This document shows, in pieces, positions 61,501 to 64,000 of a stretch of DNA of 64,000 nt. The stretch is taken from the NCBI GenBank assembly GCA_964106915.2, contig OZ066918.1; one strand, given 5' to 3'. The stretch's first letter is position 1. Every line of letters starts with the position of its first letter. The position numbers were made by a program. The stretch is from Podarcis gaigeae. Taxonomy: Eukaryota.

Positions 61501-64000
61501 TAATGTCTGAAGGCTTACATATCTTCAGATAATTATATCCTTCATACTAATCGGCTGATGATTTGCCCGCCCAGACGCCAATACCGCAGCCCTTCAAGCC
61601 ATTATTTTTAACCGCGTAGGAGACATTGGACTAATACTAGCCCTTGCCTGACTAGCAATACACTTAGCAACCTGAAACATTCAAGAAATAACAATTGAAA
61701 CTAAAACCCCTCCCCTACTACCTCTCTTCGGCCTTATTCTTGCCTCCGCAGGTAAATCCGCACAATTCGGACTCCACCCCTGACTCCCAGCTGCAATAGA
61801 AGGTCCAACACCTGTTTCAGCGGGGGAGAAGTTTTCAGGGTCGCCTAGTAGGTTAGGTATAAAAAGAGCAAGTAGTAGGAGAAGAGTAAAGATTAATATA
61901 GCACCCAGTAAGTCTTTATATGAATAATATGGGTGGAATGGAATTTTGTCTGTGTTGGAATTTAAGCCTGTTGGGTTGTTTGATCCTGTCTCATGTAAGA
62001 AGAGTAGGTGTACTATTGAGGTTCCTATAATAAGAAAAGGTAATAGGAAATGGAAGGTAAAGAATCGAGTTAGGGTTGCGTTGTCTACTGCAAAGCCGCC
62101 TCAGATTCACTCGACGAGGGAGGTGCCGATGTAGGGAATTGCGGAAAGAAGATTAGTAATGACGGTGGCACCTCAAAATGATATTTGGCCTCAAGGGAGG
62201 ACATAGCCTATGAAGGCTGTGGCTATGACGAGAAGCAGGAGTAGGACTCCAATGTTTCAAGTTTCGGTAAATATATAAGAACCATAATATAAGCCTCGTC
62301 CAATGTGTAAATAAATGCAGACGAAGAACATAGAAGCACCGTTGGCGTGTAGGTTGCGAATAAGTCATCCGTATTGGACATCTCGATGAATGTGGGCAAC
62401 GGATGAAAAGGCGGAAGAAATGTCTGGGGTATAGTGTATGGCTAAAAAGAGGCCTGTGATGGATTGGCCCATATGCACCTGGGCCAATCCCTAAATTGGG
62501 CAGCGGGGGGGGGGGTTACACATGTACAGCAGGCTCCCCCACTTCTGACTGCATCCTCAAATGGACAAACAGGGGCATGGTTGGAGGGGACTAGGCCAGA
62601 GATTGTGACCCTGTTTTTCCTCTCACATGAGTCTAAGAGCATGAGAGATGAATGCCTGAAAAGGGCTCAAGTGTGATTAAGAAACTGAACCCAATAAGTG
62701 CTCTGCAAATAGCTTCAGACTAGAATTACAGGGTATACTCAGTGGTCAGGATTCCAAGGGGGTAGGGTTACTAGGGAGCAGAGAATATGTTTAACCACCA
62801 ACACACTGATGTCTGAGTGTGCCTCTTTACTTTCTATTCTACATATGTGGCTCCCTTTATTTTCTGCTATATAATAATGTCCTTCACTCTGCTGGGAGAA
62901 CTTGTGTGTTGTACTTCAGAATAAAGCAGAAGCAAAATGTGCCCTCCATGCCAACAGTGGGTGGTTGGGCCTTACTGGCAATGTCTTTTTTTTAAAAAAA
63001 ATGTTTTTATTAACAATTTCAACATAACAGATTATCAAAACATATCATATTCATTATTCCCCCTTTCCCCCCACCCCCTTCAAACCTCCCCTCCCCCCGA
63101 GACTTCCCTCAGCTCCTCTCTCTGATTTTCTCAGAACATATTATTCTCTGCATGTTGTAAAATTATACATATCCTTGCAGTATCTATCTACAATGTTATC
63201 AACTAGTAAATTTGTGTATGTTTATTCAAAACCTGTTGTCTTTTAGATAAGTTGTAAAAAGCTCCCACTCTTCCTTAAAGTCACAGTTGTCCTTATCCCG
63301 CAATTTGTATGTCAATTTAGCCAGCTCTGCGTAGCTCATCAATTTTTCTTGCCACTGTTCTTTCGTTGGGGTTTCCTCATTCTTCCATCCTTGTGCTATC
63401 AAGACTCTTGCCGCTGTTGTAGCATACATAAATAAGTTCTTTGTTTTTCTTAGCAGGTCTTGTCCTACAATCCCTAACAGAAATGCTTCTGGGTGTTTTT
63501 TTTACAAAAGTCATTTTAAACATTTTTTCAATTCATTATATATCATTTCCCAAATTTTTTTAACTTCTCTACATTCCCACCACATCTGATAAAAAGTCCC
63601 TTCTTTTTCTTTACATTTCCAACATGTGTTTGACCCAGTTTTGTACATTTTTGCTATCTGTACTGGTGTAATATACCATCTATACATCATTTTCATAAAA
63701 TTTTCTTTCAAAAGAGAACAACCTGTAAATTTCAAATTTATTTTCCACAATTTTTTCCAGTCCTCAAATTGTATATTATGTCCTATATACTGTGCCCATT
63801 TGATTATGACCAATTTGACCTCCTCATCTTTTGTGTCCCATTCTAGCAGAATGGGCCTTACTGACAATGTCCCTGTGGTTGCTTGCACCCGTCTCCAGCA
63901 GTCCTTTCAATAGACAAACCCCCATTCTCCACACACACATCCTGTTCATCATTATGATAGGCATTTTGCCAGTATTGTAATGTACAACATTGGATTCTAA

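What the first reader, a model, noticed from the sequence alone, without database searches (positions are those of the whole stretch)
61531..62461. Young chimeric NUMT: ND5 fused tail-to-tail with inverted CYTB
Seen: a 291-bp ND5 fragment (+) and a 643-bp CYTB fragment (-) meet at a shared AGC (61819-61821). Both frames are free of stops and indels in the mitochondrial code. Established: ND5 and CYTB are co-oriented and separated by the rest of ND5, ND6 and tRNA-Glu in typical vertebrate mtDNA. Inference: two mtDNA pieces were joined by microhomology during nuclear capture, recently. It is a risk for cytb barcoding and a possible record of an ancestral or introgressed mitotype.
Basis: partly seen in the sequence, partly recalled or inferred. 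Interest (0 to 1): 0.72.

Follow-up and report, generated by a model that had tools for sequence, protein, structure and literature searches.

The report
Two-piece mitochondrial insert in lizard DNA
This is a dead copy of two mitochondrial gene pieces (ND5 and cytochrome b, joined back to back) sitting in the nuclear genome of a wall-lizard-like reptile; it is an ordinary kind of DNA-repair scar, of modest use as a marker of past mitochondrial lineages.

Summary
Window 61532-61821 (+) encodes ND5 residues 152-248. Window 61819-62466 (-) encodes cytochrome b residues 45-260. Both read only in the vertebrate mitochondrial code, with no stop and no gap.

The window is lizard, not human. ND5 is 97/97 identical to a Podarcis siculus ND5. 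CYTB is 202-210/216 identical to 40 Podarcis proteins and groups with Podarcis in 483/500 bootstraps.

The two pieces meet tail to tail with a 2-3 bp overlap. Flanks are CpG-poor nuclear DNA.

It fits a known kind, the "complex NUMT": non-adjacent organelle fragments in different orientations, joined by end joining at a chromosome break (PMC6215612, PMC9630118).

"Young" is supported only in a bounded sense:
- 0 replacements at 195 invariant codons of 313, which caps post-insertion change at about 0.7-1.0%.
- CpG is retained.
- There is no early "freezing".

Open frames alone prove little. The overlap is within chance expectation.

Not testable here: the host's own mitotype, read support, presence/absence in other individuals or species, and the empty site.

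Interest is low.

The parts
61532..61821 (+). ND5-derived fragment: residues 152-248 of a 607-aa lacertid ND5. It is truncated at both ends. It has 5 in-frame TGA (Trp) and 6 ATA codons.
   Evidence: 97/97 identical and ungapped to P0242, a Podarcis siculus ND5. The other 47 lacertid ND5 proteins score 84-93/97. tblastn with code 2 gives E 8e-57. Solved ND5 chains are hit. Upstream and downstream codons do not match ND5.
61819..61821 (.). Internal tail-to-tail junction. The bases AGC can be read as the end of either fragment. The GC overlap is certain; the A is possible.
   Evidence: Read directly from the sequence. Both proteins end on an alanine that is invariant in the comparison sets. Base 61822 is the only third-position G among 97 ND5 codons.
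61819..62466 (-). Cytochrome b-derived fragment: residues 45-260 of 380, truncated at both ends. It has 6 in-frame TGA (Trp) and 9 ATA codons. The origin of the last 6 bases (62461-62466) is ambiguous.
   Evidence: Ungapped, 202-210/216 identical to 40 Podarcis cytochrome b proteins. Pfam PF00033/PF13631. Solved chains at residues 166-259. tblastn E 5e-139. The neighbouring codons on both sides do not match cytochrome b.
62461..62490 (.). Perfect palindrome (11-bp arms, 8-nt loop). It starts at the base where unambiguous CYTB homology ends and is followed by a G run. It is either a pre-existing fragile target site or a product of the joining.
   Evidence: the repeat finder pair I6, 100% complementary. 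It is 1 of only 2 such hairpins with arms of at least 11 bp in 64 kb, and 1 of 8 with arms of at least 10 bp, once the TA microsatellite and low-complexity arms are set aside.

Best explanation
The stretch is a complex (two-fragment) NUMT: a non-functional nuclear copy of mitochondrial DNA in the genome of a lacertid lizard, most likely a Podarcis wall lizard.

Two pieces of one mitochondrial genome were ligated tail to tail, with a 2-3 bp overlap:
- ND5 gene bases about 454-744.
- CYTB gene bases about 133-780.

In intact mtDNA these pieces lie about 1.8 kb apart on the same strand. The joined pair was captured as filler at a chromosomal double-strand break by end joining. No target-site duplication was made.

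The insert does nothing. It cannot be translated in the nucleus, because it carries 11 in-frame TGA codons and two truncated genes on opposite strands.

It has changed very little since transfer, so it still carries the mitotype it came from.

Shown: the identity of both pieces, their orientation and bounds, their intactness, low decay, nuclear-type flanks and a Podarcis-type source.

Inferred: capture at a break, end joining, and joining before or during capture.
For: Identity and intactness
-.
- Mitochondrial code signature: 11 of 11 Trp codons are TGA, and third-position G is 1 of 97 and 5 of 216.

Nuclear setting
- There is no N in the window.
- Flank CpG observed/expected is 0.18 and 0.12, against 0.79-0.83 inside the insert.
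- A dispersed repeat lies 0.5 kb to the right, with copies at 7.3 and 29.5 kb.
- Reverse-transcriptase fragments lie elsewhere in the window.
- Only one ND5 piece and one CYTB piece are present in the window.

Source
- ND5 is identical to the Podarcis siculus protein.
- CYTB groups with Podarcis in 483 of 500 bootstraps. That run used 27 of the 104 usable sequences.

Low decay
- 0 changes at 195 invariant codons of 313.
- Only 3 of 216 CYTB residues are not seen in 40 Podarcis proteins, and all 3 lie at variable columns.
- The relative-rate check puts the insert in the middle of the Podarcis range: 19 of 40 are closer to the outgroups.

Junctions
- There is a 2-3 bp overlap.
- No direct repeat brackets the insert.

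The kind is described in print
- Complex numts from different locations and orientations, with blunt or 1-7 bp microhomology junctions, thought to be joined before or during capture (PMC6215612, passages).
- 151 different mtDNA-mtDNA breakpoints, and microhomology at 51.9% of NUMT breakpoints, in humans (PMC9630118, passages).
Against: - No reads, no second assembly and no empty orthologous site could be examined, so the nuclear location rests on one assembled sequence.
- The overlap is no larger than chance often gives.
- CYTB matches no sampled Podarcis protein closely: at least 6 of 216 differ. The P. siculus representative that matches ND5 perfectly differs at 11 of 216 in CYTB. A single source mitotype is therefore assumed, not shown.
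- Only one Podarcis ND5 was available.
- The CYTB comparison set was picked by likeness to the last 94 codons, which flatters conservation there. The bound that avoids that part is 1.0%.
- All comparisons are at protein level. No mitochondrial DNA of any lizard could be fetched.
Confidence: 0.8

Rival explanations
1. One longer collinear mitochondrial fragment (ND5 to CYTB, about 3 kb) was inserted first. It was later rearranged in the chromosome by an inversion of about 2.45 kb and a deletion of about 1.8 kb.
For: Both pieces come from one 3-kb neighbourhood of mtDNA. The literature notes that some complex inserts arise after integration (PMC6215612, passage). Short palindromes are locally frequent: 3 of the window's 8 hairpins with arms of at least 10 bp lie within 61.25-62.49 kb.
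Against: It needs two further events inside a time that allowed at most about 7 substitutions. The deletion would have to end exactly at or beyond the nuclear boundary. No remnant of ND6, of the rest of ND5 or of CYTB codons 1-44 is found.
Confidence: 0.07
2. The inverted ND5/CYTB junction already existed in a rearranged mitochondrial DNA molecule (a rare sub-genomic form). That molecule, or a piece of it, was then captured as a single fragment.
For: It gives the same final sequence as the best explanation. The literature leaves 'before or during integration' open (PMC6215612, passages).
Against: Nothing here speaks for such a molecule. Lacertid gene order is reported as conserved (PMC10961475, passages). 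No reads were available to look for it.
Confidence: 0.07
3. Assembly or read artefact: true mitochondrial reads or chimeric molecules were stitched into a nuclear contig.
For: The stretch looks almost undecayed, as real mtDNA would. It lies 1.5 kb from the window's end. No read evidence could be seen.
Against: It would need three false junctions within 1 kb, including an inverted one. Both sides continue in ordinary CpG-poor, repeat-bearing nuclear sequence without gaps.
Confidence: 0.05

Closest known systems
Complex (multi-fragment) NUMTs, as defined in Portugez et al. 2018 (PMC6215612; abstract and passages read)
   Same: It has several organelle fragments from different locations and orientations at one nuclear site. 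The internal junction is blunt or carries 1-7 bp of microhomology. There is no target-site duplication, and the insert is non-functional.
   Different: Nothing essential differs. This one is small (about 0.94 kb), has only two pieces and lies in a lizard. The 11-bp-arm palindrome at one outer boundary is not a described feature of the class in the passages I read.
Concatenated NUMTs in human genomes (Wei et al. 2022, PMC9630118; passages read)
   Same: Both have mtDNA-mtDNA breakpoints inside nuclear inserts, and microhomology at many breakpoints. One common human breakpoint is given as 12867-14977. By my recalled gene map of human mtDNA, that also joins ND5 to CYTB.
   Different: The human cases include very large 'mega' concatemers. 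The passage does not give the orientation of the human 12867-14977 junction, and the supplements are closed. There is no relationship by descent with the lizard insert.
The cytochrome b nuclear pseudogene of Podarcis siculus (Podnar et al. 2007, J Mol Evol 64:308; seen only as citations in PMC5216540, PMC3050842 and PMC4319766; the paper is not held)
   Same: The genus is the same or a close one, the gene is the same, and so is the practical concern for cytb work.
   Different: [quoted passage not shown] This insert is 0.94 kb in two inverted pieces. Whether the two are related could not be checked.

Membership tests
NUMT (nuclear copy of mitochondrial DNA) | Clear homology to mitochondrial genes | tested here: met
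   ND5 is 97/97 identical and CYTB up to 210/216. tblastn gives E 8e-57 and 5e-139.
NUMT (nuclear copy of mitochondrial DNA) | Mitochondrial coding signature rather than a nuclear gene | tested here: met
   11 of 11 Trp codons are TGA and none is TGG. Third-position G is 1/97 and 5/216. The frames are open only in code 2.
NUMT (nuclear copy of mitochondrial DNA) | Embedded in nuclear sequence on both sides | tested here: met
   This holds within the one assembled window. There is no N. Flank CpG observed/expected is 0.18 and 0.12. A dispersed repeat and retroelement fragments are present. The neighbouring codons do not match mitochondrial proteins.
NUMT (nuclear copy of mitochondrial DNA) | Physical support by reads or a second individual; an empty site in relatives | not testable with these tools
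Complex / concatenated NUMT | Two or more fragments from non-adjacent mitochondrial positions at one site | tested here: met
   ND5 residues 152-248 abut CYTB residues 260-45. The rest of ND5 and all of CYTB codons 1-44 are absent.
Complex / concatenated NUMT | Fragments may differ in orientation relative to mtDNA | tested here: met
   ND5 is on the + strand and CYTB on the - strand. The two genes are co-oriented in lacertid mtDNA (PMC7687526 abstract; PMC10961475 passages).
Complex / concatenated NUMT | End-joining signature at the internal junction (blunt or 1-7 bp microhomology) | tested here: met
   There is a 2-3 bp overlap with no filler. The signature is compatible with end joining but is not beyond chance: 0.16 for at least 2 bp and 0.05 for at least 3 bp (my formula).
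Complex / concatenated NUMT | Fragments joined before or during capture, not by later rearrangement or a second insertion | not testable with these tools
   This needs the orthologous locus in relatives and nucleotide-level dating of each piece.
Mega-NUMT (tandem concatemer of near-whole mtDNA) | Many kilobases, repeated mitochondrial units | tested here: not met
   There is a single 0.94-kb insert. No other ND5 or CYTB match is found in 64 kb.

The most novel reading that the evidence does not exclude
The insert preserves a Podarcis mitotype that is not the one its host carries today. It would be an ancestral lineage later replaced by mitochondrial capture, or a lineage that entered by hybridisation. 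That would make it a dated nuclear witness for the mitochondrial introgression history of wall lizards.

A recent paper proposes this use of NUMTs but does not carry it out (PMC13599021, passage).

The CYTB piece matches none of 40 sampled Podarcis proteins better than 210/216, yet it shows no sign of nuclear decay. This is what such a ghost mitotype would look like. It is also what an ordinary copy of an unsampled host species' own mitotype would look like.
Probability: 0.15. Interest if true: 0.45.

Novelty: new member of a known kind. Interest (0 to 1): 0.15.

Why it matters
The value is practical rather than conceptual.

- The insert can contaminate short cytochrome b amplicons, read-based mitogenome assemblies and apparent heteroplasmy calls in wall lizards. 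The genus already has a reported cytb pseudogene (PMC5216540, passage).
- It is almost undecayed, so its nucleotide sequence could be placed on a Podarcis mitogenome tree. Combined with presence/absence across species, that could say which mitotype a lineage carried when the insert formed. This bears on mitochondrial capture in the genus (PMC13599021, passage).
- It adds nothing new to how NUMTs form.

Tried and rejected
- Sending the whole fragments by reference to Pfam and to the protein search failed, because in-frame TGA reads as stop. I used the TGA-free sub-stretches by reference instead. Whole frames were read only inside scripts, with the mitochondrial code.
- The longest TGA-free ND5 piece (35 aa) is under the 40-aa minimum of the protein search.
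- The representative search with that piece gave one hit, P0121. Used as a scaffold (A1), it brought mostly mammalian ND5 and a single lacertid (P0229). P0121 was then dropped.
- A second alignment on a part of P0229 (A2) gave 48 lacertid ND5 proteins but only one Podarcis.
I therefore could not see which species stand behind the 11-member P. siculus ND5 cluster or behind the CYTB clusters.
- Species-level placement of the CYTB piece failed at protein level. No sister pair reached more than 30 of 500 bootstraps.
- A first tree script timed out. Two scripts failed on a motif anchor.
- A 9-base match between the internal junction and the right flank (family D2) was set aside as chance. About 5 such matches are expected in 1.6 kb (my estimate).
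- A composition scan for further mitochondrial-like stretches returned mostly repeats and is not informative. The mitochondrial-code frame scan found no other candidate.
- No tRNA or rRNA of mitochondrial type is present. Rfam and ARAGORN gave only one tRNA-Asn-like hit at 35.8 kb.
- Host species: no nuclear coding exon was recognised that could name it.
- Podnar et al. 2007 is not held.

Full report
**What is there**

The window has no N. Read in the vertebrate mitochondrial code, 61532-61822 (+) gives 97 codons. These align without a gap to residues 152-248 of a 607-aa ND5 of Podarcis siculus (P0242) and are identical at 97 of 97.

On the other strand, 62466-61819 gives 216 codons. These align without a gap to residues 45-260 of the 380-aa cytochrome b of lacertid lizards, best 210 of 216.

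A code-2 tblastn of those two proteins against the whole window finds exactly one strong match each (E 8e-57 and 5e-139). Nothing else scores below E 0.2.

I therefore sent them the TGA-free sub-stretches by reference:
- 5 of 5 CYTB pieces hit Pfam PF00033.
- The two ND5 pieces (29 and 35 aa) hit no Pfam family at E 0.01.
- Both ND5 pieces hit solved ND5 chains at residues 159-187 and 198-231.
- The 94-aa CYTB piece hits solved cytochrome b at residues 166-259.

All 11 tryptophans are TGA, with no TGG. Third-position G is 1 of 97 and 5 of 216.

**Bounds and junctions**

The ten codons upstream of 61532 and those downstream of 61822 do not match ND5. The codons beyond either end of the CYTB piece do not match cytochrome b.

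At the internal junction the + strand reads TCA GCG GGG:
- ND5 ends on Ser-Ala. CYTB, read as antisense, ends on Pro-Ala.
- Both alanines are invariant in my comparison sets. The palindromic GC at 61820-61821 therefore belongs to both genes.
- A61819 belongs to both only if the source codons were TCA and GCT.
- G61822 is the only G-ending codon position in the ND5 frame, so it is CYTB's.
- The overlap is therefore 2-3 bp with no filler.
- By the usual chance formula (mine, (k+1)(1/4)^k(3/4)^2), at least 2 bp occurs in 16% of random joins and at least 3 bp in 5%. This fits end joining but proves nothing more.

No direct repeat brackets the insert.

At the right boundary a perfect palindrome (11-bp arms, 8-nt loop, 62461-62490) begins exactly where unambiguous CYTB homology ends:
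- Setting aside a TA microsatellite and low-complexity arms, the window holds 2 such hairpins with arms of at least 11 bp.
- It holds 8 with arms of at least 10 bp, and 3 of those 8 lie within 61.25-62.49 kb.
- Its first six bases read as CYTB codons 45-46. One of those two residues is seen in none of the 40 Podarcis proteins.
- So either the mitochondrial piece runs to 62466 and the palindrome arose in the joining, or it ends near 62461 and the palindrome is a pre-existing, perhaps fragile, target. I cannot tell which. This is a post-hoc observation.

**Whose DNA**

I do not take the window for human. The nearest proteins to both pieces are from lacertid lizards.

CYTB:
- It differs from 40 Podarcis proteins at 6-14 of 216 residues. 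P. melisellensis differs at 6, P. vaucheri at 7-9, P. bocagei at 8, P. siculus at 11 and P. muralis at 10-14.
- It differs from Lacerta and Teira at 19-23.
- In a neighbour-joining bootstrap on 15 Podarcis and 12 other genera (27 of the 104 usable sequences), Podarcis plus the insert is a group in 483 of 500 replicates. The insert falls outside all Podarcis in 26 of 500. No species-level sister exceeds 30 of 500.

ND5:
- It is identical to the one Podarcis ND5 I could get.
- It is 84-93 of 97 identical to 47 other lacertids. The 72 non-lacertid hits were dropped.

Rows dropped from the CYTB counts:
- 14 of the 120 hits were dropped because they are not 380 aa long.
- 2 Logan entries were dropped because they read I where all others read M.

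The host species itself remains unknown to me.

**How old**

- About 3.8% of random substitutions would make a stop. P(no stop) is 0.70 at 1% and 0.49 at 2% divergence.
- Under the mitochondrial code the window holds 32 frames of at least 90 codons. The ND5 frame is tied fifth. Only the 250-codon CYTB frame stands out.

Better evidence:
- (i) The insert shows 0 replacements at 195 of 313 codons, namely 127 CYTB columns invariant in 104 sequences plus 68 ND5 columns invariant in 48. This gives a 95% upper bound of about 7 substitutions since selection was lifted, or 0.7%. Leaving out the CYTB part used to select the hits, the bound is 1.0%.
- (ii) Only 3 of 216 CYTB residues are unseen in Podarcis, and all 3 lie at variable columns.
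- (iii) CpG observed/expected is 0.79 and 0.83 inside the insert (32 CpGs). It is 0.18 and 0.12 in the flanks and 0.28 in the window.
- (iv) The insert's mean distance to 14 outgroup genera (25.2) lies in the middle of the Podarcis range (23.7-27.1), with 19 of 40 closer. It therefore did not stop evolving early in the history of the genus. This test has low power.

With a recalled, order-of-magnitude squamate nuclear rate of about 1e-9 per site per year, the bound means less than roughly 7-10 million years. That is young for a NUMT, but not necessarily recent or polymorphic.

**What it is and how it arose**

It is a complex NUMT. [quoted passage not shown] Their junctions are blunt or have 1-7 bp of microhomology, and they are thought to be concatenated before or during capture at a double-strand break (PMC6215612, abstract and passages).

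In humans, 151 different mtDNA-mtDNA breakpoints and microhomology at 51.9% of NUMT breakpoints are reported. One common breakpoint is 12867-14977, which by my recalled gene map also joins ND5 to CYTB (PMC9630118, passages). The passages do not give its orientation, and the supplements are closed.

In lacertids, gene order is reported as conserved across 54 species (PMC10961475, passages). In Takydromus only ND6 and eight tRNA genes are on the L strand (PMC7687526, abstract in the listing). The inverted junction is therefore not the normal mitochondrial arrangement.

My best reading (0.8) is that two fragments of one mtDNA, about 1.8 kb apart, were joined tail to tail and ligated into a chromosome break. 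Three rivals remain and none could be tested here:
- later inversion plus deletion of a longer insert (0.07);
- capture of an already rearranged mitochondrial molecule (0.07);
- an assembly artefact (0.05).

**Practical claims**

The barcoding risk is narrower than stated:
- The insert lacks CYTB codons 1-44 and 261-380.
- A published P. siculus forward primer that sits in the missing part has 0 matches at up to 3 mismatches (primer from PMC5216540, Table 1).
- Short internal amplicons and read-based mitogenome assembly could still pick it up.
- A cytb pseudogene in P. siculus is already on record (PMC5216540, passage citing Podnar et al. 2007; that paper is not held).

Using NUMTs to recover pre-introgression mitotypes in Iberian Podarcis has been proposed (PMC13599021, passage). 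Whether this insert carries a non-host mitotype is open.

**What stayed unchecked**

- No lizard mitochondrial or nuclear DNA could be fetched.
- On the virus-like stretch named by the operators: I saw only reverse-transcriptase fragments of retroelements. I described them, did not search further, and built nothing from them.

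Noticed in passing
window 734-1981 (-): A 415-aa ORF with a Pfam RVT_1 reverse-transcriptase domain (E 2.3e-17). It looks like a non-LTR retroelement fragment; that label is recalled, not tested. The ORF at 55215-55661 (-) resembles its C-terminal tail by eye. This may be the virus-like stretch the operators mention. It was described only.
   Followed up: partly
window 33403-33852 (+), 33459-34358 (-), 36473-37015 (-): A second RVT_1 fragment (E 1.4e-10). The two antisense ORFs at 33.5 and 36.5 kb share a long near-identical stretch near their N-termini, so one retroelement family is present at least twice.
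   Followed up: partly
window 63511-63888 (-): A 125-aa ORF with a cysteine-rich tail and no Pfam hit. By recall it resembles the end of a LINE ORF2. It lies 1 kb to the right of the insert.
   Followed up: no
window 62998-63353, 29541-29779, 7242-7577: A dispersed repeat family (74-85% identity over 46-291 bp). One copy starts 0.5 kb to the right of the insert. It is strongly G-poor on the + strand.
   Followed up: no
window 35810-35884 (-): A tRNA-Asn-like sequence (anticodon GTT). It scores exactly at Rfam's gathering score (29 bits, E 0.059). It could be a gene or a tRNA-derived repeat.
   Followed up: no
window 61374-61420: A perfect 24-bp tandem duplication (2.0 copies) 110 bp to the left of the insert. 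Two 10-bp-arm hairpins lie at 61253-61280 and 61419-61444.
   Followed up: partly
window 21187-21246: A TA microsatellite that dominates any palindrome count.
   Followed up: no
P0121: An unnamed 166-aa database protein. It is ND5-like for about 120 residues and then runs into unrelated sequence. It is nearest to mammalian ND5 (about 80%). It may itself be a predicted protein read from a NUMT.
   Followed up: no
P0002, P0020: Two unnamed cytochrome b entries. They read I at every position where named Podarcis proteins and the insert read M. They were apparently translated with a code that reads ATA as Ile, which inflates their apparent distance.
   Followed up: partly
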